A DNA stretch of 59,170 bases from Candidatus Levyibacteriota bacterium (lineage in GTDB: Bacteria; Patescibacteriota; Microgenomatia; Levybacterales; UBA12049), in assembly GCA_017991775.1 (NCBI GenBank), contig JAGOPV010000003.1:1-59170 (forward strand), in the 5' to 3' direction. A program made the translations under genes and the position numbers. Below, piece after piece: positions 20,575-48,675 of the stretch. Positions within the stretch are counted from its first letter, which is position 1. Each line of letters begins with the position of its first letter. The notes under the pieces were generated by a model, which saw only the letters and a program-made list of their open reading frames with translations, had not been told where the DNA came from and did not search any database.

Positions 20575-20575
20575 T

Positions 20576-20800: not shown

Positions 20801-20804
20801 ATTT

Positions 20805-23545: not shown

Positions 23546-25286
23546 TAATTAGGATTTGCAACAGAGACAAAGCAAACGGTGTAATTAGAACGCTTTTTTG
23601 AATTATAGTGTCTTGTAGAACGAATGTAAAATCAACTTGCCTATTCGTTAGGAACGAGGTCTGACTAAAACCTACATCAATATCCTTAAATCCAAACGGT
23701 GGTATTTCAGAAAGTGAAATTTGCTGCTCACCCGGCTTCAGACCTCTTGAAATAACCTCGGCAGTCTGTGATGGGAAGAGAATCGGAGAGGTATTCTCAA
23801 CATGAATTGAGCCATTAAGTGGGAAAAATGATAAAAGTTTGTTGGGAAAATCTAAAGTTACTGAGACTTTAGGAGAGGCTGTGGGAAATGAGCTGCCTAG
23901 ACTAATATTGACGTCTTTCTTGTTCTCATCGCCTTCAAATTTATAGCCTCCAGCAGGAACAGGATACTCACTATTTCTACCTTTCCTAACGAAGGCAATA
24001 TGATCAAAGTCAAATACTGAGAAGTAATCCGTACCTCCCGTTGTATTCCCCCAGGTAGGGTCGACCATCACCCAGCGCTTTGTAGCAGAGTCATAATATT
24101 CAGGCCACGCATGAAGTATATCTTGAACCAGCGAGAGTGGTCGTTGCTTTGAATTCTCAGTGTTTGCAAAGCCATTCACTTCACGGGCTGGAATACCAGC
24201 CGCTCTTGCAAGGGTAATGAAAAGATCCGTGAATTCGAGGCAAACTGCCGAGGTTGGATCTGAGAGTGAATCAAGAGCACCCAGCCTTGGCTTGTTCTGA
24301 GTCACCCTATCAAAATCATAGGTAAGCGTTGCTACAGTGTAGGCATATATTTTCGAAGGTGTATTGTAAATCTTTGCGAGCTCTTTTATTTTGGCAGAAG
24401 ATATCTGCCAGTACTTCTGCTCTTTTGTATAGAGTTTCTTTTCTTCATCTGAGAGAGTAACTTGGGATGGGACTAACTTTACCCTCACTGTACCTTTTAC
24501 ATTAATATCCATTTTCTCTGATGGTGATAGAGTGTATTGAGCGAGCCAATTGCCATCGATGTCTGTGATCACGTTGGTGGGCTTGGGGACGATCGAGTCT
24601 ATGGCGACATCTTGATAGTTAGTATTCATTGGGAGAGCAATCTCAGTCCTGATAGGAAATACGTTTTTATTACGAAGGTGATAGACGAGGTCTAATTTGT
24701 AGATCTGATCCGTACCATATGCTATCGAGATGCCGGATTTACCGAGCTCTTCTTTTGTAAAAATAAGGATGTTGTCTGACTGTACTGGCTTAATATAGCT
24801 TGGTGTCCCAAAATTCTGAGGCACCTTCACCTCTGCTCTAAAGTCTGAATAATCCTCAGGTGACGAGATCCCGGGAATGTTGATCTCCCAAGTATTACCT
24901 TTATGATGCGCGACGTTAGTCGTATCAAAAGTTACAACAAAGACAAGTGATTTGTCTTTCCCAACAACTTTTTGATTAAAAGGTAGCTCAATTGCATTTC
25001 CCTCTTTTGTTCGTGTGATATTTGGACGAAGCTCAGTATTCGCATCTCGGGCTTTTACATTAGTAATATCGTCAAATCCGACCGTGATAGTATCTGACGA
25101 AGCATAGTAATCGCTCGTCTTATTGGTGAGTGTAACAGTGAGCACAACATTCGTCTTACCATCATCTTTTACTGTATAGACCACGTCGTATTTCCTTGAA
25201 AAATATTCTGACTCTGCATGCACATTTTGTGCAGTAGAAAGTAGAAAGAATACAGAAGCGAGTAATAGAAGGAGCATTTTCTTCAT
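23421..25286 (-). CDS. secreted transglutaminase-like domain protein with C-terminal TM anchor
   Basis: Signal peptide. Cys-His-Asp core (AVCLEFTDLF..., HAWPEYY, MVDPTW). C-terminal hydrophobic helix. Confidence 0.75.
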   Translation of the reverse strand: MKKMLLLLLASVFFLLSTAQNVHAESEYFSRKYDVVYTVKDDGKTNVVLTVTLTNKTSDYYASSDTITVGFDDITNVKARDANTELRPNITRTKEGNAIELPFNQKVVGKDKSLVFVVTFDTTNVAHHKGNTWEINIPGISSPEDYSDFRAEVKVPQNFGTPSYIKPVQSDNILIFTKEELGKSGISIAYGTDQIYKLDLVYHLRNKNVFPIRTEIALPMNTNYQDVAIDSIVPKPTNVITDIDGNWLAQYTLSPSEKMDINVKGTVRVKLVPSQVTLSDEEKKLYTKEQKYWQISSAKIKELAKIYNTPSKIYAYTVATLTYDFDRVTQNKPRLGALDSLSDPTSAVCLEFTDLFITLARAAGIPAREVNGFANTENSKQRPLSLVQDILHAWPEYYDSATKRWVMVDPTWGNTTGGTDYFSVFDFDHIAFVRKGRNSEYPVPAGGYKFEGDENKKDVNISLGSSFPTASPKVSVTLDFPNKLLSFFPLNGSIHVENTSPILFPSQTAEVISRGLKPGEQQISLSEIPPFGFKDIDVGFSQTSFLTNRQVDFTFVLQDTIIQKSVLITPFALSLLQILIIGGVILAISTIIILVFTRKSRRIPLPEQGEGNSLRGKGQKS

Positions 25287-25308
25287 ATGAGGATATTCTA
25301 CCCTAAAA

Positions 25309-25388
25309 TAGGAGATAGTTGTCAGGAATTAGGAACTAGTTAAAATTGAATTGTAACTGACTCCTAGCTCCTGATTCCTAATAACTTT
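25309..25388. repeat. heptad-phased imperfect inverted repeat (CTAG/TAG family)
   Basis: TAG/CAG trinucleotides end at 25311, 25318, 25325, 25332 and 25339. CTGA/CTAG/CTGA/CTAA/CTTT start at 25357, 25364, 25371, 25378 and 25385. The spacing is exactly 7 nt on both arms. Confidence 0.7.
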
Positions 25389-28282
25389 CAAATGATTTTG
25401 GCGAGGAAGCGTCCTGTTTCAGATACTGGGTTGGCTGCAATTTCTTTTGGAGTACCCGTGGCAACGATAGTGCCACCTTTTTCGCCACCTTCTGGTCCAA
25501 GATCGATAATGTGATCTGCATTCTTAATCATGTCTAGATTGTGCTCAATAACTATGACTGAATTACCCTGATCTACAAGTTTTCGTAGAACATTTAGTAA
25601 CTTTTCTAAATCAGCAAAGTGGAGACCTGTCGTTGGCTCGTCGAGAAGATAGAGTGCATCTCGTCCTCTCTTAGAAAGCTCTGCTGCCAACTTAACGCGC
25701 TGAGCCTCCCCACCTGAAAGTGTTGGAGCTGGTTGTCCAAGGGTCACATATGAAAGTCCAACTTCTTTAAGCATTTCTAATTTGTGTGCAAGCCCTGGCA
25801 CAAATGAGAAGAACTCAACTGCCTCAGCTACGCTCATGTCTAGAACATCTGCGATATTTTTACCTTGAAATAAGATCTCAAGTGCGTCGCTATTGTATTG
25901 CTTGCCCTGGCAAATTTCACAAGTCACATAGACATCTGGCAAGAACTGCATCTCGATCTTGATCTGACCCTCTCCCTCACAAGCTTCGCATCTTCCCCCC
26001 TTTACGTTAAATGAGAATCTACCAGGACCATATCCTCTCAATTTCGCTTCCTTAGTCTTGGCAAAGACTTCACGAATATAGTTAAAACAACCTGTATATG
26101 TCGCAGGATTACTTCTTGGCGTTCTTCCAATTGGCGACTGATCGATTGCAAAGACATTTTTGATTTTTTCAAATCCTTCCAATTTCTCAAATTCTCCTGC
26201 TTTTTGCCTGTGAAAAGTGTTGTTTTGCTGCATGAGAGCATGGTAGAGAATGTCATTAATAAGTGTGGACTTGCCACTACCAGACACTCCAGTTACCACG
26301 ATTAATTCATGGAGTGGAAAATCTACAGTGATATTTTTAAGATTATGCTCTTTGGCACCTATCAGAGATAACTTACCCGGATCTTTTTTAACAAGCATTG
26401 GATCTACTTTTCGTTCAACCTTGATGACCTTCTTTTTTGAGAGGTACTGACCAGTGACTGAAGTAGGTGACTTTTTCAATTCTTCATACGTTCCATGGGC
26501 TACGATCTCTCCGCCATATGCCCCAGCTCCTGGCCCAAAGTCATAGATGTAATCTGCTGCTGCCATAGTATCTTCATCATGTTCCACAACAAGTACAGTG
26601 TTGCCAAGGTCGCGAAGCCGCTTCAGGGTATCAATGAGTTTGGCATTGTCTCTTTGGTGAAGGCCAATGGACGGCTCATCAAGCACATAGAGTACCCCAG
26701 TGAGTCCACTTCCAATCTGTGAAGCGAGGCGAATTCGCTGTGCCTCCCCACCGGCAAGTGTTGAAGCATTTCGAGAAAGTGTAAGATACTCAAGCCCAAC
26801 ATCAACTAAAAAGCCAATACGAGTACTGATCTCACGCAGAATGAGCTTACCGATCTCTAACTCTCTTTTGTTAAATTTAACTGAAACTGTGCTGAAGAAT
26901 TCAAGCACTTTGCCAATTGGCATATCTGAGATATCTACAATGGATTTACCATCTATTGTTACTCCAAGCGCCTCTTTTTTCAGACGTGCTCCGTTACATT
27001 CTGGACAAACATCATAGCGCATGAATTTCTCAATTTGGCCCCTGACATAGTTGGAGTCTGACTCTGCGAAACGTCGTCTAAGCTCAGCTGCAATTCCTTT
27101 GAAAGCCTCACTAATAACAGTCTGACTCCCCCAACGATTTTCACCTTTTACTTTATATTCTTTCTCGCCAGTACCAAACAGTAAGAGCTCTTTCTCAGCT
27201 TCTGAGAAATCACCTAATTTTTTATCCATCTTAATGCCGTTCTCAGAGCAAAACGTCTTAAATGTTCGCGAGAACCATGTATCATTTGATCCAAGATTAA
27301 AGAAAGGAAGGATACCACCCTCATTGATTGTTAGATTTTCATTAAAAATTAGATCTTTATCCACGATAAGAACTCTTCCAATACCAGAACATTCAGGACA
27401 AGCGCCATGAGGCGTGTTGAATGAAAATATTCTAGGCTCAATTTCTGACATCGAAATATTGTCAACTGGACACGCAAATTTCTCAGAGTAGAGATGGTCT
27501 TCTAGCTCTTTAGGAAGATCTGGGATGTCGAAAGAAGCATCTTTGATAACAGCGACTATTAGCTCGCCATTCCCAAGTGAAAGCGCTTGTTCTATATCGG
27601 TTGAGAGTCTGATCCTATCTGTCTCTTTTGCAATGACAAGTGAATCGATCACGACATCAATTGTGTGCTTGTTGGTCTTGATCAAGACCATTTTGTCATC
27701 GAGCGAGTAAACATGACCATCAATTCGCACTTTGCGATATCCCCTCTTCTTTAAGGAGACAAAAAGCTCCGAATACTCCCCTTTTCTGTCTTTAACGATA
27801 GGAGCTAAAATCATGACGCGAGCGAACTTCTTGCCAGGATCATTCTGTGTCTCTTGCATGAGTAAAATGTTGTCTGTGATCTGCTCTTTAGACTGCTGGG
27901 CAATCTCACGTCCACACTGAGGACAATGAGGATGACCTACACGAGCAAAAAGAAGTCTCATGTAGTCATAGATCTCAGTCACAGTACCCACTGTTGAGCG
28001 TGGATTGTGAGAAGTGGATTTCTGATCAATTGAAATTGCAGGTGAAAGGCCTTCGATCAAATCGACATCTGGCTTTTTCATTGTTCCTAAGAATTGACGT
28101 GCGTATGAGGAAAGGCTTTCGACGTATCGTCTTTGCCCTTCTGCATAGACTGTGTCAAAAGCTAGTGAGGATTTGCCACTACCTGAAAGCCCAGTAAAAA
28201 CAACCAATTTGTTCTTTGGGATTTCGAGGTCGACATTCTTAAGATTGTGCTCACGTGCACCTTTTACAATGATCTTTTCCAT
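25388..28282 (-). CDS. uvrA: excinuclease ABC subunit A
   Basis: 964 aa. Two ABC ATPase modules ([14 protein letters not shown] and [10 protein letters not shown]) and zinc-finger Cys clusters. Confidence 0.95.
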
Positions 28283-28361
28283 AGGGGTAAGAGAGCGTCT
28301 ATTATAGGTTAATCTGAGGAGTAAATCAATTCACCTACTTCCATATACAAGTGAGTATTGC

Positions 28362-28367
28362 TAGAGT
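28362..28367 (+). promoter_or_regulatory. extended -10 box TGCTAGAGT, 6 nt upstream of the ATG
   Basis: TGcTAGAGT-agctct-ATG, consistent with a leaderless transcript. Confidence 0.45.
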
Positions 28368-28373
28368 AGCTCT

Positions 28374-28910
28374 ATGACCAAAGGCAAGATCATCAGTAGT
28401 CTACTTTCACTCATTTTTATTCTTTGTGTGAGCTATGTTGCAAAAACGTATCAGCTTCCAGAGTCTGCAACACTTGCAGTTCAAGATATCGCACCAACTG
28501 TAGCTCTACCAATGGCATCTGAATCTGCAGTTATAACAAGAATTATTGACGGAGATACAGTGCAGATCGCGACTGGTGAAAAAGTGAGGCTTATTGGCAT
28601 AGACACACCAGAGACGGTTGATCCTCGTAAGGGCGTACAATGTTTTGGCAAAAAAGCATCAGATCACACCAAGGAAATACTCTTAAATAAAGAGGTAACT
28701 CTAAAAAAAGATATTTCTAACACTGACAGATACGGAAGGCTGCTGAGATACATCTATGTTGGAGATACCTTCATTAATGAACAACTTGTGCGAGATGGAT
28801 ATGCGAAAGCATCTAGCTATCCTCCAGATATTAGGTATCAAGAAGTATTTTTAGAGGCACAGAAGTATTCACAGGAAAACAGCCTTGGACTTTGGGGAGA
28901 ATGTTATTAG
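28374..28910 (+). CDS. thermonuclease (staphylococcal nuclease-like) family protein, membrane-anchored or secreted
   Basis: IDGDTVQI...VRLIGIDTPET and DRYGRLLRYI motifs. N-terminal hydrophobic segment. Confidence 0.85.
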   Translation: MTKGKIISSLLSLIFILCVSYVAKTYQLPESATLAVQDIAPTVALPMASESAVITRIIDGDTVQIATGEKVRLIGIDTPETVDPRKGVQCFGKKASDHTKEILLNKEVTLKKDISNTDRYGRLLRYIYVGDTFINEQLVRDGYAKASSYPPDIRYQEVFLEAQKYSQENSLGLWGECY

Positions 28911-28947
28911 CGTCTAGCGTCTAGCAACTTGCGGTAGTTGCTAGGGA
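28908..28947. repeat. TAG-heptad repeat ending in a 9-bp hairpin (bidirectional terminator candidate)
   Basis: TAGCGTC TAGCGTC TAGCAAC, then CTAGCAACT-tgcggt-AGTTGCTAG at 28921-28944. Lies between convergent genes. Confidence 0.6.
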
Positions 28948-29505
28948 TTATTCGATCTTATCAAAGGTGAAGTAGCGAAGATCATGAATCTGAATATTGT
29001 AATATGTCTCAAGTATCCTTCCCGCAGCTTCAATATGCATTTCCCCATGCAGTTCAAGTCTCTTTGCTAGATCTAATAATTCCTCTTCTGTCTCTCCTTC
29101 TAGCTCTACATAAGTAGGCACACCAGGCCAAGTATCAATATCCACTCTCGCATTTTCAAACAAGAATGAATGGCGCTTCTTTTCCTGGACCCTGAATGCT
29201 ACCAATCCAAGCTTTTCGAGAAAGGCCACAGTCTTCTCTTCATCATTCACACTGATCTCAATTTCTGTAGTTGTGGAGGTCTCAATGAGGGCTCGCTCTT
29301 TGTAGGTCAGCAAAAGTTCATCCTTAGTCTTTCGTAAACGCACGATCTTTTTCTCTTTACGAAAGTCAGCAACCTTGCTATAGAAAATGATCTCACGATA
29401 GAGGTCTTCGCCGAGATCTTGCGCCTTTAGTTCATGCAGCCTTGAGATGAGAGCTTCTTTATCAATTTCGAGGAATTTAATTTCTGTCTCAGTGTTATCA
29501 CTCAT
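28948..29505 (-). CDS. CYTH domain protein (second, divergent copy)
   Basis: N-terminal TEIKF (ExK) motif, RLRK and later acidic motifs of triphosphate tunnel enzymes. 185 aa. Confidence 0.65.
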   Translation of the reverse strand: MSDNTETEIKFLEIDKEALISRLHELKAQDLGEDLYREIIFYSKVADFRKEKKIVRLRKTKDELLLTYKERALIETSTTTEIEISVNDEEKTVAFLEKLGLVAFRVQEKKRHSFLFENARVDIDTWPGVPTYVELEGETEEELLDLAKRLELHGEMHIEAAGRILETYYNIQIHDLRYFTFDKIE

Positions 29506-29534
29506 GTGTCGAGAAAGGCAAAGATGATACTAAG

Positions 29535-29606
29535 TGAGCCGGACAGGATTCGAACCTGTGACCAAGAGCTTAAAAGGCTCCTGCTCTACCGCTGAGCTAC
29601 CGGCCC
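29535..29606 (-). tRNA. tRNA-Lys (anticodon TTT)
   Basis: The reverse complement folds as follows. Acceptor GGGCCGG/CCGGCTC, D arm GCTC..GAGC, anticodon arm GGAGC-CTTTTAA-GCTCT, T arm ACAGG-TTCGAAT-CCTGT. Confidence 0.9.
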
Positions 29607-29644
29607 CAATAGCTAATGGCATTTGGCGAATAGCTAAGGTGTTA

Positions 29645-29674
29645 ATTATACCAAGGCTGAGGCAGCCTTGACAA
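29645..29674 (-). promoter_or_regulatory. tRNA-Lys(TTT) promoter (TTGTCA-18 nt-TATAAT with TGG extension)
   Basis: Reverse complement of 29669-29674 is TTGTCA. Reverse complement of 29645-29650 is TATAAT. Confidence 0.5.
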
Positions 29675-29824
29675 GGTAGCCATGAATACTGCCCTATAAT
29701 AATTGAATTCGGGTTGTGCCTCTGATATACTTCAAAAAAATAAGGTCTCATGCTAACAAAGCGTTATGATGTGGGATCTTTTTTGTACATTTACATTTGA
29801 AATTCAGATAAATGTGTCAAGTCG

Positions 29825-29903
29825 GTGGCAGCGTGTCCCAAATTTTTGAGATAGGCTGCTGCCACTTGGCATGCCAGACGTAAGTCTGTCATCTCGCAAG
29901 GAG
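29825..29903 (+). promoter_or_regulatory. conserved structured leader, copy 1
   Basis: P1 GTGGCAGC (29825-32) / GCTGCCAC (29858-65). Inner stem TGTCCCA/TGAGATA. P3 CAGAC-GTAA-GTCTG (29875-88). SD AAGGAG at 29898-29903. Confidence 0.6.
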
Positions 29904-29910
29904 TAACTTA

Positions 29911-30129
29911 ATGTCTCATATGCCACATGATCCTACAAGCATTCTGGCATCAGAGCCAGAGGCAGAACAGAGACTCGAGGCATGGTGTCTTGAGGAGGGC
30001 CTTAAAAATCCGACGATTAGTTACATCAGCAGGGCTGGGAACCAATGGCTCTATACCATTAACGAAGACAGACCCGACCAGGTATTTGATGTGGCTGTCG
30101 ATGTAACCGGTGAGGTGAAGCGCAGGTAG
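29911..30129 (+). CDS. small hypothetical protein, paralog family member 1 (72 aa)
   Basis: AAGGAG lies 8 nt upstream. Shares the W-[CL]-x-x-x-G-[LFI] core and downstream beta-like segments with the ORFs at 30148 and 30829. Confidence 0.5.
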   Translation: MSHMPHDPTSILASEPEAEQRLEAWCLEEGLKNPTISYISRAGNQWLYTINEDRPDQVFDVAVDVTGEVKRR

Positions 30130-30147
30130 CGCTCCAAAGGAACTGCC

Positions 30148-30396
30148 ATGACTGATCGCCGTCCAAGCGACATCCGCCCACGCAAATCACCACTCGATCC
30201 TCTCAATGAGGCTCAGGACAAAGTCATCGCATGGTGTAAAAGTGTAGGCTTTGAGCATGTAGAAATTACTGCATGCTACGGTCTGCAACAGAAGGGATGG
30301 GAATTCGATCTGATCGCAGATCAACAAGTTTCAAGTGCACTCCTCACACTCGAGAACAGGATCAAGGCTCCTGGTCTCAACATCAGAAAGGGTTAA
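30148..30396 (+). CDS. small hypothetical protein, paralog family member 2 (82 aa)
   Basis: AAAGGA upstream. The IAWCKSVGF core aligns with EAWCLEEGL and KNWLKSLGI. Confidence 0.5.
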   Translation: MTDRRPSDIRPRKSPLDPLNEAQDKVIAWCKSVGFEHVEITACYGLQQKGWEFDLIADQQVSSALLTLENRIKAPGLNIRKG

Positions 30397-30401
30397 GAGT
30401 A

Positions 30402-30551
30402 GTGGGACTTCTTCTTGTAGGCGTCGGCTTCGCAACTGGAGCGGTCGCAATCTTACGAGGGATGGATGAGTATCAAAAGCTCTTTGCCCTGTCAGGGAGT
30501 GGTCTGACCTGCGTTGCAGGACTCGCGATGTGCGTCGCCCAGCTCCTCTGA
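30402..30551 (+). CDS. possible 49-aa two-TM peptide
   Basis: The GTG at 30402 is in frame with ORF-track entry 30273..30551 and begins just after the preceding stop. VGLLLVGVGFATGAVAIL and LTCVAGLAMCVAQLL are hydrophobic helices. Confidence 0.3.
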   Translation: MGLLLVGVGFATGAVAILRGMDEYQKLFALSGSGLTCVAGLAMCVAQLL

Positions 30552-30560
30552 ATTTCAAAT

Positions 30561-30614
30561 CACTGACCCAAAAGGTCTTATCTCAGGCGGTCCCGCTTAG
30601 CGAGGCCGCCTTTT
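30561..30614 (+). terminator. conserved 3' module, copy 1 (mini-hairpin plus GC-rich terminator)
   Basis: GACC-caaaa-GGTC, then GGCGGTCCCGC-tta-GCGAGGCCGCC and TTTT. Confidence 0.7.
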
Positions 30615-30729
30615 ATTTTCTATAAAAACTGTTGTACTATCAATTTGAGTAGTATCACAATCTTTTGTCTGAAATTCTGATATACTATATACCTTAATAT
30701 TGTTCATTCACAATTTAAAGTTATAAGAG

Positions 30730-30801
30730 ATTGGCAACAACGTGTCTCACCTAATAACTGAGATAGGCTGCTGCCAATTGGCAAGCCAGACTTAGTGTCT
30801 G
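30730..30801 (+). promoter_or_regulatory. conserved structured leader, copy 2
   Basis: P1 ATTGGCA (30730-36) / TGCCAAT (30772-78). Inner stem TGTCTCA/TGAGATA. P3 CAGAC-ttagt-GTCTG (30787-30801). An 18-nt block TGAGATAGGCTGCTGCCA is identical to copy 1. Confidence 0.6.
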
Positions 30802-30828
30802 TGTAGTTCAATGCGAAGGGGTGTATCC

Positions 30829-31029
30829 ATGCGTGCTAGCAAGGGCGATACCAACAAGAATCGCAAGCAGCCAGTCAAGAACTGGCTCAAATCACTCGGC
30901 ATCACCGGAGCTCAGATCTTCTCTCTAGGAAGTCACGACTTCCGAATTCGCCTCAGCAATGGCGAAGTGCACAATGCTCACGTGATCAATGCCGACAATA
31001 TCGAGTGCAAATCCCTACAGAAGGGGTAG
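30829..31029 (+). CDS. small hypothetical protein, paralog family member 3 (66 aa)
   Basis: The ATG at 30829 is preceded by GAAGGGG. The ORF-track start at 30811 lies inside the leader. Confidence 0.5.
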   Translation: MRASKGDTNKNRKQPVKNWLKSLGITGAQIFSLGSHDFRIRLSNGEVHNAHVINADNIECKSLQKG

Positions 31030-31040
31030 CAATCATTTTT

Positions 31041-31095
31041 CATTGACCCGAAAGGTCATCACACAGGCGGCCCCGCATCGCGAGGCCGCCTTTTT
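31041..31095 (+). terminator. conserved 3' module, copy 2
   Basis: TGACC-cgaaa-GGTCA, then GGCGGCCCCGC-atc-GCGAGGCCGCC and TTTTT. Confidence 0.7.
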
Positions 31096-31172
31096 CATGC
31101 CAATTACCCCAGCATTAAAGAATATACATGTAAATATTTTTTCTTTATACTAATAGTAGTTTTACCTCATCC

Positions 31173-33224
31173 ATGAAACTTTTAAAACGTTTACTGCTTG
31201 CTTCCTCACTATTTCTTCTTTTATTTGTTTCATTCAATCATGTTGTTCGAGCACTTGTTAGCACATTGGTTACATTTAATTCGACATCAGATCTTACTGA
31301 TAAGTTTAACTCTGATGGATCTGTGCAATTTACTAACACATCAACTGGTGGTATTGGAAATACTGGTGCGATTAACGTCCCACTTTCAACGACTGATATT
31401 TGGACTACAAAGCAAGGGTACTCAGTTGCAGGTCAAGGAGATATCTATACTTTCAGCGCATATTTTAAGATACAAGCAAATGGTGGTTATGGTGGTCTGG
31501 GATTTTCAAACGCTGATACTAACACAGGTGACTCACAAGGACAGCCGCTCAAAGGAATAGGCATGTCTTTTCATGGCGGTGGAGGATCTTTTGTTAACAA
31601 TAGAACATACACCGATGTCTCGTGGCCCCCGGATCTAGTGCTTGGCAATTGGTATAAGATGATTTTTAAAGTTACTGCTAAAGGAAGCAACACGTATGAT
31701 CTCAATTTTCAAATTTGGAATTCTGATGCTGATGGCACTCTGAGCACCATGAAAACAGAGAAAAATCTCAATGGCATTGTGAATAGCGATCTTGGGTCTG
31801 CGAGCATTATTCATGGATTTTTTGCAGCAGCAGGATCTCGAATGGAAAAAATCGACAACTTCCTCATAGAACTTGAGGGAGGAGCTGGATTTGTTGATGA
31901 AAATCTTCCTGTTGTTCTTACAGCATCACCATCCGCGGTCATGGGCACTACAGCCACTTCAGGAGGAAACGCGACTGATGACCAAGGAGCAGCAATTACG
32001 GATAGAGGTGTCTGTTGGAACACATCATCCAGTCCAACCACATCGCACACATGTACGCATGATGGCACTGGAGAAGGAACATTTTCAAGCTCACTAACCG
32101 GTCTCTCTGGATTGACAGCATACTATGTAAGAGCTTTTGCGACTAATTCTCAAGGGACAAGCTATGGAAGCGAATACAGTTTCACTACTTCAGCTGCTCC
32201 AACATCAACCCCAACACCAGCAGTCACATCTGAAAATATCCAGAGTCAATCAAGCTCAACCTCTCAATCAAATGTCTGCAACGACCAAACACCAATTGGC
32301 TCACCAGAGCTTTTTCAAATCGACCCCGGAGAGACTTCGGCTATAGTTTACTTCACACCTGTGAGCAATATTCAAAGCTATTTCCTCACCTACTCATCAG
32401 ATCCAAAGGCACTTGAGCACGGAACAGAAATGTCTCTTTCATCAAATGGAGTTCAGAAAATTGAAGTTAGATCACTTTCAAGGAATACAACCTACTATTT
32501 CAAGGTTAGAGGACAAAATGGTTGCATGCCTGGCAACTGGTCAAATATATATTCTGCAAAAACGTCAAGTCAGTTGTCTATGGCCTCAATTGGCTCCCCA
32601 ATTATTCAGAAGGTTTTCAAAAATGAAATTAAAATCATCTCTTCTGAGTTGGAATCTAAAAAATCCAACGTGTGCTCTTATAAGGTGCAAGCAGGTGACT
32701 CTCTTTGGACAATTGCTCAAGCAAAATTTACAGAAGGTTCAAAGTTTGTAGAAATTAAAACACTTAACAACCTTTCAAGCGATTTATTGTCAACTGGACA
32801 AGAACTAAAGCTTCCTTGTGGAAATGACGAAGTTAGTGCAGATAAGGCCAAGAATGAATTGACTCAGGAGGGAACTCGGCTTGATGTTTTAGTAAAAGAT
32901 ACTTCAGGAGGTCCGCTTGAAGGCGTAACTGTTACTCTACATTCCAAAGTTCAGATATCCAAGACAAATAAAGAAGGGATTGCAAAATTCACAAATGTCG
33001 AGCCTGGAGACCATAAGGTAATTCTTGCATATAAGAACTATAACGGTGAGCAGAAGTTAAATGTCGATGGATCAAAAACGGAACAGGTACTTACGCTACA
33101 GGTGCAGATGAACAATGGCTTTTCATCTCCCCTGGTCATTGTAGTGGTGACTCTCTTAATTCTAACAATTCTCTATCTTCTCTTCATCATTTTAAAAAAA
33201 AGGAAGAAGAAAGAGCCTCGTTAA
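31173..33224 (+). CDS. large secreted, C-terminally anchored surface protein (lectin-like N-domain, Fn3-like repeats, LysM, CarboxypepD_reg-like)
   Basis: Signal peptide. Fn3-like segments (YYVRAFATNSQGTSYGSEYSFTT and TTYYFKVRGQNG). LysM (YKVQAGDSLWTIAQ...). LDVLVKDTSGGPLEGVTVTL. Terminal TM helix plus KKRKKK. Confidence 0.75.
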   Translation: MKLLKRLLLASSLFLLLFVSFNHVVRALVSTLVTFNSTSDLTDKFNSDGSVQFTNTSTGGIGNTGAINVPLSTTDIWTTKQGYSVAGQGDIYTFSAYFKIQANGGYGGLGFSNADTNTGDSQGQPLKGIGMSFHGGGGSFVNNRTYTDVSWPPDLVLGNWYKMIFKVTAKGSNTYDLNFQIWNSDADGTLSTMKTEKNLNGIVNSDLGSASIIHGFFAAAGSRMEKIDNFLIELEGGAGFVDENLPVVLTASPSAVMGTTATSGGNATDDQGAAITDRGVCWNTSSSPTTSHTCTHDGTGEGTFSSSLTGLSGLTAYYVRAFATNSQGTSYGSEYSFTTSAAPTSTPTPAVTSENIQSQSSSTSQSNVCNDQTPIGSPELFQIDPGETSAIVYFTPVSNIQSYFLTYSSDPKALEHGTEMSLSSNGVQKIEVRSLSRNTTYYFKVRGQNGCMPGNWSNIYSAKTSSQLSMASIGSPIIQKVFKNEIKIISSELESKKSNVCSYKVQAGDSLWTIAQAKFTEGSKFVEIKTLNNLSSDLLSTGQELKLPCGNDEVSADKAKNELTQEGTRLDVLVKDTSGGPLEGVTVTLHSKVQISKTNKEGIAKFTNVEPGDHKVILAYKNYNGEQKLNVDGSKTEQVLTLQVQMNNGFSSPLVIVVVTLLILTILYLLFIILKKRKKKEPR

Positions 33225-33293
33225 CTTCTCCTTTTACCCTATGGGGCAAAGCCTCAAGTCACCCACTTCATGGGTTTTACGAGTGAAATCTGC

Positions 33294-33299
33294 TATAAT
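33294..33299 (+). promoter_or_regulatory. extended -10 box (TGCTATAAT) for tRNA-Glu
   Basis: Ends 20 nt upstream of the tRNA 5' end. Confidence 0.5.
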
Positions 33300-33319
33300 T
33301 AGGATCGGAATCGATATTT

Positions 33320-33391
33320 GGCCCGTTCTTCTATCGGTTAGGAAACAGGGTTTTCATCCCTGGAAGACGAGTTCGACTCTCGTACGGGTCA
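33320..33391 (+). tRNA. tRNA-Glu (anticodon TTC)
   Basis: Acceptor GGCCCGT/ACGGGTC, anticodon arm CAGGG-TTTTCAT-CCCTG, 4-nt variable loop, T arm ACGAG-TTCGACT-CTCGT. Confidence 0.85.
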
Positions 33392-33398
33392 CATTTGC

Positions 33399-33404
33399 TA
33401 TAAT
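33399..33404 (+). promoter_or_regulatory. extended -10 box (TTTGCTATAAT) directly abutting the tRNA-Glu 3' end
   Basis: The TG extension starts 5 nt after the discriminator base. The 9-bp hairpin CATAAGAAT/ATTCTTATG (33409-33435) follows. Confidence 0.5.
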
Positions 33405-33463
33405 ACCCCATAAGAATTGAAATACTATTCTTATGAACTTTTACATCTTGTAGATCGTTTGGT

Positions 33464-33549
33464 GAGTGGCGCTTTGTTTATCGCTTGGTAAATAATGCGC
33501 CATTCATCTCATATCAGATGCGTATGGCTTTCACATCTGAGCAAAGGAG
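33464..33549 (+). promoter_or_regulatory. structured leader of the 278-aa ORF
   Basis: GAGTGGCGC/GCGCCATTC stem at 33464-33505, TCAGATG/CATCTGA stem at 33514-33540, then AAAGGAG at 33543-33549. Confidence 0.45.
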
Positions 33550-33555
33550 TTATAG

Positions 33556-34392
33556 ATGCATCGTATCCTCGAACCCGCAGGCGTTACCGATAAAGATCGG
33601 TATCAGCACACCAACACCATCAGACCAGAGTCCCTTCGAGAAGGGTTGAGAGAAGACTTGAGGGAGATTAGATCGCACTTGCAAACTTGCGACAATTTCA
33701 ATGCTTCCCAACTGACTGTCGAAGTAGGTGATCAAGGGGAGACACTTGTCTTTTCTCCATCGCCTTACGAGGATTTTCGAGGAAGAATCGAGGTGACATT
33801 CCAAAGAGATACGTCATCTCCCGAGACCAATCCAATGTTCTTTGCCGATTATCATCTCTGGGCCGGAGGTAGTAATCATGCAAGTCATCGCCATATTCTG
33901 ATCGTCAACCATCTCGTTATCAAGCCTTGGAGCGAGTGGTACAAGTTCAGATCAGGACCTTATCATGGCGGCAGCATCCTCCATCTATCTCTCGCATTCG
34001 ATCTGTCAATACCCGCTCTTTTGCATTGGGAGCAGGAAGCGCTAGAAAAAGTCGAGAGGATTGATCGAGCACTCGGCAAGCATCGACTCAAGCTCTATCC
34101 TGAGAAAATTGAGGTCTCACAAGTTCAGCCTCCTTGCGAGGACTGCGACGACTGCAAGATCACTACAGACGCTCAAGGGGGAGGTGTTGCCATCAGGCTG
34201 CCAGACTGGTTCAACACCGGAAATATCGTGGTCAGGGTCATGAACAGAGAGTCTCCATGTGTCATCTTCAAAGGAGGCACATCAAAACCAGTAATTCCTT
34301 TAACACCACGCAAACTGCTCGGAGCGGGTTTCAAGTCAGGAAGTACCCTGATAGCTGAACTCTCACCCGATGATCCCGTGTGGTTCGGCTAG
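33556..34392 (+). CDS. hypothetical protein (278 aa)
   Basis: Strong SD, long ORF. No recognisable domain. Confidence 0.55.
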   Translation: MHRILEPAGVTDKDRYQHTNTIRPESLREGLREDLREIRSHLQTCDNFNASQLTVEVGDQGETLVFSPSPYEDFRGRIEVTFQRDTSSPETNPMFFADYHLWAGGSNHASHRHILIVNHLVIKPWSEWYKFRSGPYHGGSILHLSLAFDLSIPALLHWEQEALEKVERIDRALGKHRLKLYPEKIEVSQVQPPCEDCDDCKITTDAQGGGVAIRLPDWFNTGNIVVRVMNRESPCVIFKGGTSKPVIPLTPRKLLGAGFKSGSTLIAELSPDDPVWFG

Positions 34393-34414
34393 ATCTACAA
34401 GTAAATTAACTTAA

Positions 34415-34445
34415 GGGGGGAGTCGTAAGATTCCCCCGCTTTTTT
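34415..34445. terminator. bidirectional terminator between convergent genes
   Basis: GGGGGGA-gtcgtaaga-TTCCCCC plus TTTTTT. The 3' half ATTCCCCCGCTTTTTT resembles the terminators at 4654 and 5146. Confidence 0.65.
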
Positions 34446-35142
34446 AAGCTAATAGAGAGGAAAGTTGATCCCACTGCTTTTTACGCAGAGTGAGTGAAGG
34501 ATTGGCATCGATGATTTGTTTTGCTTTTGCTAAGTACCCCCGAGCCTTTACATCATCTTTTTCTCCAAGAGCTTTCGCAAGTCTCATATATCCTCCAGAC
34601 ACCCATACATCTTTCGCATATGCATCTGACTCATCTGAATTTTCAAGTGCATTCAGTGCTTCTTCAGCTCTCAAAAGTGCACTCTCGTCCCCATTCTTAA
34701 AGAGACATACTTCCATATGCACATGCATATTTGCTTTCACAGATACCTTATTGTGATCTGCTGGAGGATTCGTCTCGATATTTTCAACTGCCTCTTTGTA
34801 TGCCTCCCCTGCTTCATCTAACTCGCCAAGGTCTTCAAGAACACATGCTAGATTGAAAAGAGGCATTGGAAGTGCTGAGGGGTCATTTGCACTTCTTACG
34901 ATCTGGACAGCTGCTGTCATCTCATGTTTGGCTAGAACTAAAAGTCTTTTACTCCCATGAAGATTTGCATAGACACGAAGAGTTATGGAGCGACAACCCA
35001 GACCTTCAGCAAAACCAAGCGCATCTCCCTCGCTATCGTATGCAAAGAGTGCCTCATCATTAAAGCTAAGTGACTCATGGAATTGTTCTTCTTCACGTGC
35101 CTTCGCTGCCTTTGCGTGGAGTTCTCGCGCGTTTGAAATCAT
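34444..35142 (-). CDS. TPR-like helical repeat protein
   Basis: 232 aa, all-helical, with repeated A-x-x-Y/A-x-x-A patterns (LGELDEAGEAYKEAVEN). TGCTACACT lies 6 nt upstream of the ATG. Confidence 0.45.
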   Translation of the reverse strand: MISNARELHAKAAKAREEEQFHESLSFNDEALFAYDSEGDALGFAEGLGCRSITLRVYANLHGSKRLLVLAKHEMTAAVQIVRSANDPSALPMPLFNLACVLEDLGELDEAGEAYKEAVENIETNPPADHNKVSVKANMHVHMEVCLFKNGDESALLRAEEALNALENSDESDAYAKDVWVSGGYMRLAKALGEKDDVKARGYLAKAKQIIDANPSLTLRKKQWDQLSSLLA

Positions 35143-35165
35143 AAGTCTAGTGTAGCATAAGAGTG

Positions 35166-35957
35166 CTAGCTTGCCCGTTGGAGTCGAGAAAGACCATTAG
35201 ATAATATTCCATGAACAATTAACTTGGTATCTAAATATCGCAGCATGAATGCGTTTTGTACAAATTCAATGATATCGCTTGTGCTAATTTTAGATTCACC
35301 AAATTGCCTATCTATAAAATCCACTGGCACTTCTTTAATTTTTGCGTCTCTCTGAAGAGCTCTGTGCAAGAGATTCATTTGAAATGAATACCCTTCAACC
35401 TTTAGCTGGTCAAGCGACATCTGCTCTAGTAGGCTCGTCTTGATTGCCCTAAATCCTGCTGTACAGTCATGAATATGATAAATACCTGCTACATAACGTG
35501 CAAAAATATTACCAAAGCGGCTATTCATTTTGCGCATAAAGCTCCAATCTGCAGGAATTGATCCATTTTCAATATATCGGGATCCAATGACAAAATCGTA
35601 TCCCTTCGCAAGAGGTGAAAGAAGTCTCTTAATGTCCTTTGGGTTGTGTGAGAAGTCGGCATCCATCTCCATAACTACATCGACCTTCAGGTTGTTCATA
35701 GCGTGATGAAATCCTCTAATATATGCATTACCGAGTCCATTCTTATTGCCACTGATCATAGAGACTCTCTTATTCTTTTTTATAATACTCTCAACGATCT
35801 TTCCCGTCCCATCTGGAGATTTATCATCGACAACTAAAACCTGCATTTTAAAAATGGTGGATTTTTCAATTTTTGCGAATTCAGATGACAATGCAGTCAA
35901 CATTCTTGTGATATTTTCTTTCTCATTATATGTTGGAAGAACTATAGCAACATTCAT
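35166..35957 (-). CDS. GT2 polyprenol-phosphate mannosyl/glycosyl-transferase (Dpm1-like)
   Basis: VAIVLPTYNEKENI, VDDKSPDGTG and DADFSH motifs. The ATG at 35957 follows GGAGGA and overlaps the upstream stop (ATGA). Confidence 0.85.
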   Translation of the reverse strand: MNVAIVLPTYNEKENITRMLTALSSEFAKIEKSTIFKMQVLVVDDKSPDGTGKIVESIIKKNKRVSMISGNKNGLGNAYIRGFHHAMNNLKVDVVMEMDADFSHNPKDIKRLLSPLAKGYDFVIGSRYIENGSIPADWSFMRKMNSRFGNIFARYVAGIYHIHDCTAGFRAIKTSLLEQMSLDQLKVEGYSFQMNLLHRALQRDAKIKEVPVDFIDRQFGESKISTSDIIEFVQNAFMLRYLDTKLIVHGILSNGLSRLQRAS

Positions 35958-38758: not shown

Positions 38759-38764
38759 AGAGTC

Positions 38765-39316
38765 TTATCTACTTTGAAGTCTCTTGTGGAGAATTGCGTA
38801 GAGTATTCCCAAAAAGAGAATAAAGCTAAGAATTCCGATAGAAGTATTAAGCGAATTTGGATGAAATCCACCCGAAAACGGATTTGTGAAAATAGCTGCT
38901 GATTTTACTTGGACATCTGGAACTATAAAGGTTGCAAGCAAAATTTCTTTACTCTCATTGTTGTTCGTATCTGTACCCCTGATATAGAGATAATGCTTTC
39001 CAGCCTCCAATGGAGTTTTTACTTGATATGAATAATAACCTTTCTCATCTGAGAGGACTTCTCCATACACTGGTTTATTCTTAATAATAAGACTTATCTG
39101 AGTATTGCTGAGTGAGTATCCTTCAATAAGTGGCTTGTCTGTTGAAATCTTAAATACTTTTTCAGGTTCTTCAACTCTAATTCCATCGACGATAGTTCCA
39201 CCACCAATTGTTTTCGCACTAAGAATCGAGGAGAAAGCAAATGAAGACCCTGCAACTGCTAAGGAAGTAAAGACTAAGGCAAAGAAGGAGAATAGTAATT
39301 GATATAGTTTGTTCAT
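38765..39316 (-). CDS. secreted Ig-like-fold protein with C-terminal anchor (hypothetical)
   Basis: Signal peptide, beta-rich ectodomain and a terminal TM helix. Confidence 0.5.
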   Translation of the reverse strand: MNKLYQLLFSFFALVFTSLAVAGSSFAFSSILSAKTIGGGTIVDGIRVEEPEKVFKISTDKPLIEGYSLSNTQISLIIKNKPVYGEVLSDEKGYYSYQVKTPLEAGKHYLYIRGTDTNNNESKEILLATFIVPDVQVKSAAIFTNPFSGGFHPNSLNTSIGILSFILFLGILYAILHKRLQSR

Positions 39317-39518: not shown

Positions 39519-39547
39519 TTGTTTTTAGTCGCTAGTAAGCCTATAAT
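39519..39547 (+). promoter_or_regulatory. promoter TTGTTT-17 nt-TATAAT
   Basis: -35 box at 39519-39524 and -10 box at 39542-39547. Confidence 0.55.
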
Positions 39548-48581: not shown

Positions 48582-48642
48582 TAGAAGACACATGAGTGGC
48601 GAACTGAGTTTCGATACACTATCGAAATTGAGTCGGCCGCTC
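48582..48642 (+). promoter_or_regulatory. extended -10 box (TGCTAGAAG) plus nested leader hairpin
   Basis: TAGAAG at 48582-48587. The outer stem GAGTGGCG (48594-48601) pairs with CGGCCGCTC (48634-48642) with one bulge and one G-T pair. It encloses TTTCGATA-cac-TATCGAAA (48609-48627). Confidence 0.4.
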
Positions 48643-48675
48643 ACGTGAGGGGCATTACAGTCAACAGGAGTTGGA

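What the first reader, a model, noticed from the sequence alone, without database searches (positions are those of the whole stretch)
29825..29910. Leader copy 1: nested hairpin with GNRA-capped second stem and competing TGGCA/TGCCA pairings
- P1 GTGGCAGC/GCTGCCAC encloses an inner stem TGTCCCA/TGAGATA.
- Downstream, CAGAC-GTAA-GTCTG precedes AAGGAG.
- Relative to copy 2, the P1 outer pair changes G-C to T-A (GTGGCA/TGCCAC versus TTGGCA/TGCCAA), a compensatory change.
- The tract TGCCA-CT-TGGCA-TGCCA contains three mutually complementary 5-mers. Alternative pairings are therefore possible: the first 5-mer with the P1 5' arm, or the second with either neighbour. This is characteristic of switch-like RNAs.
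- Alternatively, the 10-12-bp palindromes TGGCATGCCA and TGCCAATTGGCA could be protein operators.
Basis: seen in the sequence. Interest (0 to 1): 0.65.

Follow-up and report, generated by a model that had tools for sequence, protein, structure and literature searches.

The report
New structured mRNA leader in CPR bacteria
The stretch is one copy of a previously uncatalogued folded RNA leader that sits in front of small, swappable, highly expressed orphan genes in a group of ultra-small (CPR) bacteria; relatives keep its hairpin and a competing second pairing through compensating mutations, so it is a real regulatory or stability RNA whose trigger is still unknown.

Summary
With only the two window copies the structure had no real covariation. 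The claimed G-C to T-A swap depends on one of two possible registers and is broken in the sister genome.

I collected 22 homologous leaders: strain and metagenome variants, one more diverged cassette, and members from 12 of 194 genomes of the same family. In this set 17 of 18 pairs of the long hairpin (P1+P2) change on both sides, and 91% of cells stay paired against 35-50% for slid controls. G-U pairs outnumber A-C mismatches 49 to 15.

The segment right after the hairpin repeats the 5' arm. It covaries with the 3' arm (permutation p about 1e-4), so the competing pairing is real. The apical helix P2 keeps its sequence while P1 changes freely. All but one hit lie 30-75 nt upstream of a start codon, on the sense strand.

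There is no Rfam match. The loops vary, the downstream genes are unrelated, and there is no consistent terminator or SD sequestration. It is therefore neither a typical metabolite riboswitch nor a DNA operator.

Best reading: a portable promoter-proximal 5' leader recognised by an unknown factor, acting on mRNA stability, processing or translation. Transcription start, strand of the RNA evidence and output are unproven.

The parts
29703..29731 (+). Distal sigma-70-like promoter: TTGAAT, 17-nt spacer, TATACT, with TG at 29723-29724.
   Evidence: Promoter scan, 9 of 12 matches with TG. The same TTGAAT-17-TGNTATACT is kept in G146, J1 (L072) and S (L071). Inferred, not mapped.
29783..29813 (+). 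Proximal promoter-like motif TTGTAC...ATAAAT. It would put the transcription start a few nt before P1.
   Evidence: The motif TTTTTGTWC-TTTACA recurs 29-41 nt before P1 in W1, G1, J1, S, W2, W3, G140c, G144a and G057b. Inferred only.
29824..29832 (+). Segment 1, the 5' arm of P1 (GGTGGCAGC).
   Evidence: Pairs with 29855-29863 in the minimum-free-energy fold. The columns covary in 22 homologues.
29834..29853 (+). P2 apical hairpin: TGTCCCA, loop AATTTT, TGAGATA. It carries a conserved G-U pair and a C.A mismatch, and is flanked by the G29833.G29854 mismatch.
   Evidence: The P2 sequence (U/A)GUCYC(GA)-loop-(UC)GRGAU(A/U) is kept across the family and in two genomes outside it, while P1 changes. 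The loop varies from 4 to 9 nt in length and sequence.
29855..29865 (+). Segment 2, the 3' arm of P1 (GCTGCTGCC, then AC). It is shared between P1 and the alternative helix.
29866..29873 (+). Segment 3 (TTGGCATG), a repeat of segment 1. The alternative helix is U29860-G-C-C with G29868-G-C-A, loop ACUU.
   Evidence: It forms when segment 1 is blocked. Cognate 2:3 pairing is stronger than non-cognate pairing, p about 1e-4 over 16 lineages. Loop bases vary (ACUU, AAUA, AAUU, AAUUUU).
29875..29888 (+). P3 hairpin, CAGAC-GTAA-GTCTG.
   Evidence: Invariant stem in 9 close sequences, with one A-U to G-U change in J1. Absent from the more distant members.
29898..29913 (+). SD AAGGAG and ATG of the 72-aa ORF1.
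   Evidence: P3 ends 22-32 nt before the ATG in all nine close leaders.
29911..30551 (+). Cargo of cassette 1: ORF1 (72 aa), ORF2 (82 aa, 30148-30396) and a 49-aa two-helix membrane peptide (30402-30551, GTG start).
   Evidence: Orphan family with an invariant Trp in a W-[C/L/G]-x3-G-like helix motif. Only 7 hits among 1.84 billion representatives.
30560..30614 (+). Conserved 3' module T1: a small hairpin plus a GC-rich terminator and T-run.
   Evidence: The homologous module in S has compensating changes.
30731..30801 (+). Leader copy 2: P1 30731-30741 with 30767-30777; P2 30743-30749 with 30759-30765; segment 3 30778-30785; P3 30787-30801. The ATG is at 30829.
30829..31094 (+). Cassette 2 cargo (ORF4, 66 aa, 30829-31029) and 3' module T2 (31040-31094).
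48593..48655 (+). Third, weaker member of the broader leader family in the window. Segment 1 is GTGAGTGG, segment 2 CCGCTCAC, segment 3 GTGAGGGG. The ATG of a 139-aa ORF is at 48676.
   Evidence: R3 covariance model with filters off, 22.4 bits, E = 0.001. Sequence, ORF.

Best explanation
Window 29824-29888 is one copy of an uncatalogued cis-acting RNA leader. It is transcribed as the 5' untranslated region of small-gene cassettes in a family of CPR bacteria.

Anatomy. It folds into a long imperfect hairpin.
- The basal helix P1 has 9-11 bp and evolves freely by compensating changes.
- A purine-purine mismatch separates P1 from the apical helix P2.
- P2 has 7-8 bp and keeps its sequence, with a fixed G-U pair and usually a C.A mismatch.
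- Directly after the hairpin comes a copy of the 5' arm (segment 3). It can pair with the 3' arm in place of the 5' arm.

Most likely mechanism (inferred, not shown). P2 and the adjoining mismatch are the docking site of a trans-acting factor. This is more likely a protein, such as a dsRNA-binding regulator or nuclease, than a metabolite. The P1 versus 2:3 toggle links that event to the fate of the mRNA: stability against 5'-end-dependent decay, processing, or ribosome loading on the SD 25-45 nt downstream. Together with the promoter motif just upstream and the conserved terminator module downstream, it forms a portable expression unit that is recombined in front of different orphan genes.

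Shown: the RNA-type structure, its covariation, the conserved alternative pairing, its position and orientation, and its distribution.

Inferred: the transcription start, the factor and the regulatory output.
For: 1. Structure. In 22 homologues, 17 of 18 P1/P2 pairs change on both sides. 91.3% of cells are paired against 35-50% with slid partners, and 0 of 500 shuffles reach the observed values. With only the 9 close sequences, 4 pairs change on both sides (3 of 500 shuffles).
2. RNA, and this strand. G-U pairs number 49 against 15 A-C mismatches. Minus-strand model scores are 25-38 bits against 80-99 bits on the plus strand.
3. Alternative helix.
   - The cognate segment 2 / segment 3 duplex averages -7.4 kcal/mol against -5.4 for non-cognate pairs, permutation p = 1e-4.
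   - Within-sequence shuffles give p of 0.000-0.08 in 8 of the 19 leaders tested.
   - The helix forms whenever segment 1 is blocked.
   - In S, segment 1 (GGGUAG) and segment 3 (GGAUGG) differ, yet both pair with CUAUCC through wobbles.
   - J2 inserts UU in what would be the loop.
4. Position. 19 of 20 independent hits lie 30-75 nt upstream of an SD and start codon, on the sense strand.
5. P2 is conserved in sequence across genera, and in G214 and G383 outside the family, while P1 is unrelated in sequence.
6. Expression. In three RNA-labelled runs the only part of 20 kb of the window recovered at 95% identity or more is 29715-30131, at depth 10-17. The contigs span P1 (29767-29924 and 29715-29871). 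A fourth run holds 30661-30881.
7. Portability.
   - The same leader core precedes different coding sequences in W, G146, S and a contig of run X33.
   - Six sister species have a membrane-protein gene at the same tRNA-Lys site instead.
8. There is no match to 4227 Rfam families, even at E = 10.
9. The genome encodes RNase III and RNase J, so dsRNA processing and 5'-to-3' decay are both available.
Against: - No transcription start is mapped. The RNA evidence consists of unstranded assembled contigs, which may contain DNA. Two of them start upstream of the proximal promoter, and one starts upstream of the distal -10 box.
- The distant members were found with covariance models that reward pairing and G-U. 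The covariation and G-U/A-C counts on the 22-sequence set are therefore partly circular. The independent part is the 9-sequence set plus the gene context.
- The alternative helix is weak (4-7 bp), 10-17 kcal/mol less stable than P1, and absent or unclear in about 6 of 16 lineages.
- No conserved output element was found: no terminator except in G049, and no SD or AUG sequestration shared by the copies.
- The factor is wholly hypothetical.
- P2 conservation could partly reflect recent spread of a portable module rather than recognition.
Confidence: 0.55

Rival explanations
1. Passive 5' stabiliser only. The hairpin sits at the extreme 5' end of the mRNA and simply blocks RNase J or 5'-end-dependent decay, as the ompA or aprE leader stem-loops do. 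Segment 3 and the P2 sequence conservation would be by-products of common descent of a portable promoter-leader module, and there would be no regulation.
For: - A promoter-like motif lies 29-41 nt before P1, which predicts a start within about 6 nt of P1.
- RNase J is present.
- The cassettes appear to be the most abundant transcripts of the region.
- The downstream genes are unrelated, and there is no conserved output element.
Against: - It does not explain why segment 3 covaries with segment 2.
- It does not explain why P2 keeps its sequence, G-U pair and C.A mismatch when P1 has turned over completely.
- The RNA contigs extend 50-110 nt upstream of P1.
- A conserved distal promoter would place the hairpin 85 nt into the leader.
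Confidence: 0.2
2. RNase III maturation site with refolding. The roughly 20-bp irregular P1-P2 duplex is cut by RNase III. The 5' arm is lost, and the remaining 3' arm pairs with segment 3 to give the processed mRNA a new protective 5' hairpin. This is comparable to the T7 early-mRNA R sites and the pnp leader.
For: - The duplex length and internal mismatches fit RNase III substrates.
- An rnc gene is present.
- It gives a reason for the X / X' / X layout and for the 2:3 helix forming only once segment 1 is removed.
- The cassettes carry matching 3' hairpin modules.
Against: - There is no cleavage evidence. The contig ends are uninformative.
- The 2:3 helix is missing in several members.
- RNase III recognition rules in CPR bacteria are unknown.
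Confidence: 0.12
3. Small-molecule or ion riboswitch. The hairpin with its mismatches is a minimal aptamer. Ligand binding stabilises P1, and the 2:3 helix is the expression platform.
For: - The architecture, with a P1 whose 3' strand is shared with an alternative helix, is that of riboswitches.
- The non-canonical positions are conserved: the R.G mismatch, the G-U pair and the C.A mismatch.
Against: - There are no conserved unpaired nucleotides. The P2 and P3 loops and the junction vary in sequence and length.
- The downstream genes are unrelated orphans with no metabolic theme.
- There is no consistent terminator or SD sequestration.
- There is no Rfam match.
Confidence: 0.06
4. DNA-level element. 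The inverted repeats TTGGCA/TGCCAA are operators for a dimeric DNA-binding protein, or single-stranded-DNA hairpins used as recombination sites for shuffling the cassettes (attC- or REP-like).
For: - There are perfect 10-12-bp palindromes in some copies.
- The element lies just downstream of a promoter-like motif.
- The cassettes are clearly exchanged between contexts, with a sharp left boundary at CCTATAAT.
Against: - Half-site spacing varies: 0, 2, 4 or 5 nt for the 2:3 repeat and 4-9 nt for P2.
- Segments 1 and 3 differ by transitions that keep only RNA-type wobble pairing.
- G-U exceeds A-C.
- The orientation is always sense, at a fixed distance from the SD.
- There are only 2-3 copies per genome.
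- No integrase or transposase was seen beside the cassettes among the ORFs of 20000-40000. This was not an exhaustive search.
Confidence: 0.05
5. Leader peptide. An upstream ORF (ATG 29812 to TAA 29881-29883, 23 codons) is translated across the hairpin and couples translation to the P1 versus 2:3 choice, as in classical attenuation.
For: An ATG- or GTG-initiated frame in the same register runs through the leader in W1, J1, S and J2. It ends in the P3 loop in W1 and W2 (read directly from the sequences).
Against: - There is no SD.
- G1 and X1 use a different frame that stops after 11 codons.
- Changes in J1 and S are non-synonymous or indels, while third codon positions are invariant among close copies. 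This is the opposite of coding conservation.
- Distant members have no such ORF.
Confidence: 0.02

Closest known systems
Riboswitch- or attenuator-type leaders with a shared P1 3' strand (1:2 versus 2:3 pairing)
   Same: It is a 5'-UTR element. The 3' strand of the basal helix can pair with either of two like segments, and this layout is conserved by covariation.
   Different: There are no conserved loop or junction nucleotides, no metabolic gene association, and no conserved terminator or SD-sequestering helix. The default helix is far more stable than the alternative.
Protein-dependent antiterminator hairpins (RAT sites of BglG/SacY/LicT; PyrR and TRAP leaders)
   Same: It is an imperfect hairpin with conserved internal mismatches, and its 3' side overlaps a following helix. 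Recognition by a protein is likely.
   Different: A terminator follows only in G049 (hairpin plus U5). The window copies have none. No cognate regulator was identified.
5'-terminal stabiliser stem-loops (E. coli ompA leader, B. subtilis aprE leader)
   Same: It is a stable promoter-proximal hairpin in front of strongly expressed genes, in an organism that has RNase J.
   Different: Stabilisers need no conserved sequence and no repeated segment 3. The transcription start is unknown here.
RNase III processing hairpins (phage T7 early-region R sites, E. coli pnp leader)
   Same: It is a roughly 20-bp irregular duplex in intergenic or leader positions of short, highly expressed genes, and each unit is closed by a 3' hairpin.
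   Different: No cleavage data exist. The refolding step is a conjecture.
Mobile regulatory cassettes: PeSL (promoter-early stem-loop) units of T4-type phages and minimal mobile elements of Neisseria.
   Same: Conserved promoter, stem-loop and terminator blocks flank small, unrelated, exchangeable ORFs.
   Different: Those blocks are thought to act as recombination homology and simple promoters or terminators. Here the leader also shows RNA-specific covariation and an alternative helix.

Membership tests
Any Rfam 15 family | The covariance-model score reaches the gathering threshold. | tested here: not met
   There were no matches in 29600-31200 other than noise of 14-19 bits at E of 0.6-5.5. 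At the gathering threshold only tRNAs matched in the window.
Metabolite riboswitch | Conserved unpaired nucleotides in loops or junctions that form a ligand pocket. | tested here: not met
   The P2 loop (4-9 nt), P3 loop (4-5 nt) and junction vary in sequence and length. The invariant columns lie in stems.
Metabolite riboswitch | Association with a coherent set of biosynthesis or transport genes. | tested here: not met
   The downstream genes are orphan 38-229-aa proteins, small membrane proteins and a J-domain protein. The window ORFs have no Pfam hits.
Metabolite riboswitch | An expression platform (terminator or SD sequestor) that competes with P1. | tested here: inconclusive
   A competing 2:3 helix is conserved. 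It is followed by a U-run only in G049, and weakly in G058. No SD sequestration is shared.
RAT / BglG-type antitermination | The hairpin overlaps an intrinsic terminator, and a CAT-domain regulator is present. | tested here: not met
   There is no terminator in the window leaders. The regulator was not searched for.
5'-terminal stabiliser stem-loop | The hairpin begins within a few nt of the mRNA 5' end. | tested here: inconclusive
   The promoter-like motif predicts a start between -6 and +6 relative to P1. RNA contigs extend further upstream, and a conserved distal promoter exists.
5'-terminal stabiliser stem-loop | The host has a 5'-end-dependent nuclease. | tested here: met
   RNase_J_C scores 69.5 bits in a 575-aa frame.
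RNase III processing site | An irregular duplex of about two helical turns, and an rnc gene in the host. | tested here: met
   P1 (9-11 bp), a mismatch and P2 (7-8 bp). Ribonucleas_3_3 scores 125 bits.
RNase III processing site | Cleavage within the duplex. | not testable with these tools
Dispersed repeat / attC / REP-like DNA hairpin | Many copies in either orientation relative to genes, and an associated recombinase. | tested here: not met
   There are 2-3 copies per genome, and 19 of 20 hits are sense and upstream of a start codon. No integrase or transposase was seen among the ORFs of 20000-40000; this was not exhaustive.

The most novel reading that the evidence does not exclude
The conserved P2 helix (G-U pair, C.A mismatch and adjoining purine mismatch) is the docking site of a CPR-specific RNA-binding regulator or nuclease. 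The X / X' / X layout would be a new kind of toggle. After the factor acts, for example by RNase III-type cleavage or by capture of the 5' arm, the 3' arm re-pairs with segment 3 and resets the 5' end of the message. The leader would then define a small post-transcriptional regulon of exchangeable orphan-gene cassettes in Levybacteria-type bacteria.
Probability: 0.18. Interest if true: 0.75.

Novelty: new member of a known kind. Interest (0 to 1): 0.52.

Why it matters
Almost nothing is known about gene regulation in CPR/Patescibacteria, which are uncultured or hard to grow. This gives a concrete, covariation-supported RNA element in that group.

- It has a defined conserved helix, a testable alternative pairing and a short list of target genes.
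- The target genes appear to be among the most abundant transcripts of the organism in environmental RNA data.
- It suggests that promoter, leader and terminator travel together as a portable expression unit for accessory genes.
- It offers a compact native 5' leader that could be tried for expression control in these bacteria.

It is not a new principle of regulation unless the toggle proves to work in the conjectured way.

Tried and rejected
Searches and tools that gave nothing.
- Rfam at the gathering threshold and at E up to 10: nothing.
- Pfam and PHROGs on the cassette ORFs: nothing.
- AlphaFold model of ORF4 (pLDDT 77, one helix plus four strands): no PDB fold match with E below 0.25.
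- Profile search of the protein family against 1.84 billion representatives: 7 hits. One is a eukaryote-like SUMO-repeat protein matched only over the helix, which I judged spurious.
- Exact-pattern scans. Genome contigs found only the sister genome. The first metagenome scan found nothing. The second, degenerate scan gave 32 loci, none confirmed by the covariance model. The JGI contigs that do carry the leader are evidently not in that collection.
- BLAST of the leader over 194 family genomes: only the sister species.
- Literature search for CPR structured RNAs: nothing relevant.

Ideas considered and dropped.
- A kissing interaction between the P2 and P3 loops. It gives 4 bp in W2 only.
- An anti-SD role for the P2 5' arm. 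There is no complementarity.
- Long-range pairing of segment 3 with codons 3-5. It is present in W1 and X1 only.
- Complementarity of TATCTCA in T1 with the P2 3' arm. It is not kept in S.
- A sigma-54 promoter reading of TGGCA. There is no TTGC at the correct spacing.
- Integron attC. The R'/R'' consensus and an integrase are both missing.
- Autoregulation by the encoded protein family. Distant leaders precede unrelated proteins.

Full report
**Observation.** Every feature in the finding is in the sequence.
- GTGGCAGC (29825-29832) pairs with GCTGCCAC (29858-29865).
- The inner stem is TGTCCCA/TGAGATA (29834-29840 / 29847-29853), with one G-U pair and one C.A mismatch.
- CAGAC-GTAA-GTCTG lies at 29875-29888, AAGGAG at 29898-29903 and the ATG at 29911.
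- The tract TGCCA-CT-TGGCA-TGCCA lies at 29860-29876.

Copy 1 folds well below shuffled controls (-35.9 kcal/mol, z = -3.26). Copy 2 (30731-30801) gives the same fold and shares an exact 18-mer with copy 1.

Two corrections apply. First, the repeat GCTGCTGCC permits a second P1 register, 29824-32 with 29855-63. This is the minimum-free-energy fold and the only register common to all relatives. With the seven closest sequences there is no double-sided change at all.

**Setting.** The window comes from an 813-kb, 30-contig genome. Earlier notes of this scan call it a Levybacteria (CPR) genome; I did not test that label.

The two leaders head two tandem cassettes between tRNA-Lys(UUU) and a LysM protein gene.
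- Cassette 1 carries three small ORFs (72 aa, 82 aa and a 49-aa membrane peptide).
- Cassette 2 carries one 66-aa ORF.
- Each cassette ends in the same two-hairpin terminator module.

The proteins have no Pfam or PHROG family. They form a tiny orphan family (an invariant Trp in a W-[C/L/G]-x3-G-like helix motif; 7 hits in 1.84 billion representatives), and a model of ORF4 matches no solved fold.

Six other species of the genus have a conserved membrane-protein gene at the same tRNA-Lys site. Only one sister species (G146) has the cassettes, also as two copies. Contigs from other samples join the cassette to different left flanks at the same point, CCTATAAT (window 29693). They join it to different right flanks too. 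A contig in run X33 carries the leader core in front of yet another coding start. The unit of promoter, leader, ORFs and terminator is therefore exchangeable.

**Homologues and structure.** No Rfam family matches.
- Close variants came from protein look-ups: X1/X2 (L040), J2 (L039) and J1 (L072).
- S (L071) is a more diverged cassette that carries three paralogues of the same protein family and a covarying terminator module.
- Covariance models built in three rounds then found members in 12 of 194 genomes of the family. Only two weak members were found among 401 genomes drawn evenly from the class, most of them outside the family.
- A third, weaker member lies in the window at 48593-48655.

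On nine close sequences, four pairs change on both sides (3 of 500 shuffles reach this). On 22 sequences, 17 of 18 pairs do so, with 91.3% of cells paired against 35-50% for slid partners.

P1 turns over completely. Examples are UUGGCAACAGC, GGGUAGCAGC, UAGGUGGUUUU, ACGACGGCUUU and UCCCCGGAAUC. P2 keeps its sequence, (U/A)GUCYC(GA)-loop-(UC)GRGAU(A/U), with a fixed G-U pair and usually a C.A mismatch. A purine-purine mismatch separates the two helices. G-U pairs outnumber A-C mismatches 49 to 15, and minus-strand scores are far lower. The sense strand is therefore the folded one.

One caveat applies. The distant members were selected by models that reward pairing, so these counts are partly circular. 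The nine-sequence result and the gene context are independent of that.

**The competing pairing.** Immediately after the hairpin there is a near copy of the 5' arm. It can pair with the end of the 3' arm.

| Member | Alternative 2:3 helix |
|---|---|
| W1 | UGCC-ACUU-GGCA |
| J2 | UGCCA-AUUU-UGGCA (a UU insertion falls in the loop) |
| S | CUAUCC-AUUC-GGAUGG |
| G142 | CGUCGU-UAGGU-ACGACG |
| G137 | CGCC-UAUA-GGUG |
| G140c, G144a | CUGCC-UACU-GGCAG |
| W3 | CUCAC directly followed by GUGAG (no spacer; any hairpin would be shorter) |

- In S, segments 1 and 3 differ (GGGUAG against GGAUGG), yet both pair with CUAUCC through wobbles. That is expected for RNA and not for repeated protein-binding boxes.
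- Across 16 non-redundant lineages, the cognate segment 2 / segment 3 duplexes are stronger than non-cognate ones (permutation p = 1e-4).
- Blocking segment 1 makes the helix appear in every case folded.
- The helix is weak and missing in about six lineages. P1 is 10-17 kcal/mol more stable, so any switching needs an active agent.

**Position and expression.**
- Nineteen of 20 independent hits lie 30-75 nt upstream of an SD and start codon, on the sense strand.
- A promoter-like motif (TTTTTGTWC-TTTACA) lies 29-41 nt before P1 in many members. It predicts a start within about 6 nt of the hairpin.
- A canonical distal promoter (TTGAAT-17-TGNTATACT, 29703-29731) is also conserved in the close clade.
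- In three RNA-labelled runs from different studies, the only part of 20 kb of the window present at high identity is 29715-30131, at depth 10-17. The contigs span P1.
- A fourth run holds 30661-30881.

These contigs are unstranded and may include DNA. They were also found by searching for this very stretch. They show that the leader is very probably transcribed and abundant, but they do not show where transcripts start.

**What it is not.**
- Not a typical metabolite riboswitch. The loops and junction vary, the downstream genes are unrelated orphans, and there is no shared terminator or SD-sequestering helix. Only G049 has a hairpin plus U5 after the element.
- Not a DNA operator. Half-site spacings vary (0, 2, 4 or 5 nt for the 2:3 repeat and 4-9 nt for P2), pairing is kept through wobbles, and orientation relative to genes is fixed.
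- Not a dispersed repeat or attC site. There are two or three copies per genome, always sense, and no recombinase was seen among the ORFs of 20000-40000.
- Not a conserved leader peptide. A frame from ATG 29812 to TAA 29881-29883 runs through the leader, but it has no SD, is in a different frame in G1 and X1, and evolves by non-synonymous changes and indels.
- Not autoregulated by the encoded protein family, because distant leaders precede unrelated proteins.

**Most likely mechanism.** The element is a cis-acting 5'-UTR RNA. Its conserved apical helix is probably recognised by a trans-acting factor, more likely a protein than a metabolite. Its basal helix competes with the 2:3 helix, and the outcome probably bears on mRNA stability, processing or ribosome loading. 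The genome has both RNase III and RNase J. This allows two concrete versions:
- a 5' protective hairpin;
- an RNase III cut, followed by re-pairing of the 3' arm with segment 3 to form a new protective 5' hairpin.

The second version would explain the X / X' / X layout but is conjecture. The structure, the covariation, the alternative pairing, the position and the distribution are shown. The transcription start, the factor and the output are inferred.

**Novelty and verdict.** This is an uncatalogued RNA family of a familiar kind, a structured regulatory or stabilising mRNA leader. It is confined largely to one CPR family and coupled to exchangeable orphan-gene cassettes. Its switch-like-RNA reading is partly supported: the competing pairings are real and conserved, but function is unproven. 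Its operator alternative is disfavoured. Interest is moderate. It would rise if the toggle or a CPR-specific binding factor were demonstrated.

Noticed in passing
window 30560-30614 and 31040-31094; L071 about 3290-3351: Both cassettes end in the same 55-nt module: a small hairpin followed by a GC-rich terminator and a T-run. The diverged cassette S has the homologous module with compensating changes (GGCGGCC/GGCCGCC becomes GCGGGCC/GCCCGC).
   Followed up: partly
window 29796-29808, 30547-30559, 30668-30680: There are three copies of a near-palindrome resembling TCTGAAATTCAGA. The first two form a perfect 14-nt inverted repeat (29795-29808 / 30547-30560) that brackets cassette 1. A similar GAAA(A)TTCAG motif lies upstream of the G137 and G057 leaders. 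Its function is unknown.
   Followed up: partly
window 30581-30587: TATCTCA in the spacer of terminator module T1 is the exact complement of the P2 3' arm TGAGATA. Other T modules carry TATCNCA with the same variable position as the P2 5' arm. It is not kept in cassette S, so it may be chance or common origin.
   Followed up: partly
window 29607-29700, and L065-L070: Six other species of the genus have a conserved membrane-protein gene of roughly 200 aa, with a TTGACA-17-TAGACT promoter, next to tRNA-Lys(UUU). In this genome and in G146 the cassettes occupy that site. The conserved cassette block starts at CCTATAAT (29693) and is joined to different left flanks in L071 and L072.
   Followed up: partly
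window 48593-48676: A third leader of the broader family lies here, with segments GTGAGTGG / CCGCTCAC / GTGAGGGG. It sits 20 nt before the ATG of a 139-aa ORF and is preceded by TTGCAC.
   Followed up: partly
run X33, contig laid on window 30737-30802: A 207-nt contig of an RNA-labelled run carries the leader-2 core at 94% identity. It is followed by unrelated sequence with its own SD and ATG (AGATCAATATAGGGAGTGAATGAGGACATG). This indicates a further cassette type behind the same leader.
   Followed up: no
window 33320-33392, against L037 2973-3045 and L039 about 571-643: tRNA-Glu is on the + strand here and is separated from cassette 2 by a 683-aa LysM/fn3 surface protein gene. In G146 and the JGI contig it is on the - strand directly after the terminator module. 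The region has been rearranged.
   Followed up: no
L109 1501-1575 (G049): In this genome the leader hairpin is followed at once by a 9-10-bp hairpin plus U5, whose 5' arm overlaps the last 2-5 nt of P1. It is either an attenuator or a stand-alone small RNA of about 70 nt.
   Followed up: partly
L134 and L127 (G140, G144): Orthologous leaders lie in front of a J-domain protein gene in two species. They differ by compensating changes in P1 (GGCGUC/GACGCU against GGCAUC/GAUGCU) and keep CUGCC-UACU-GGCAG.
   Followed up: partly
window 29812-29883: A 23-codon frame (MCQVGGSVSQIFEIGCCHLACQT) runs through the whole leader and stops in the P3 loop. A frame in the same register occurs in J1, S and J2, but not in G1 or X1. 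It has no SD.
   Followed up: partly
L071 2192-3282: Cassette S encodes three members of the orphan family. One is the C-terminal domain of a 157-aa protein, so the roughly 60-aa module can be fused to other sequence.
   Followed up: no
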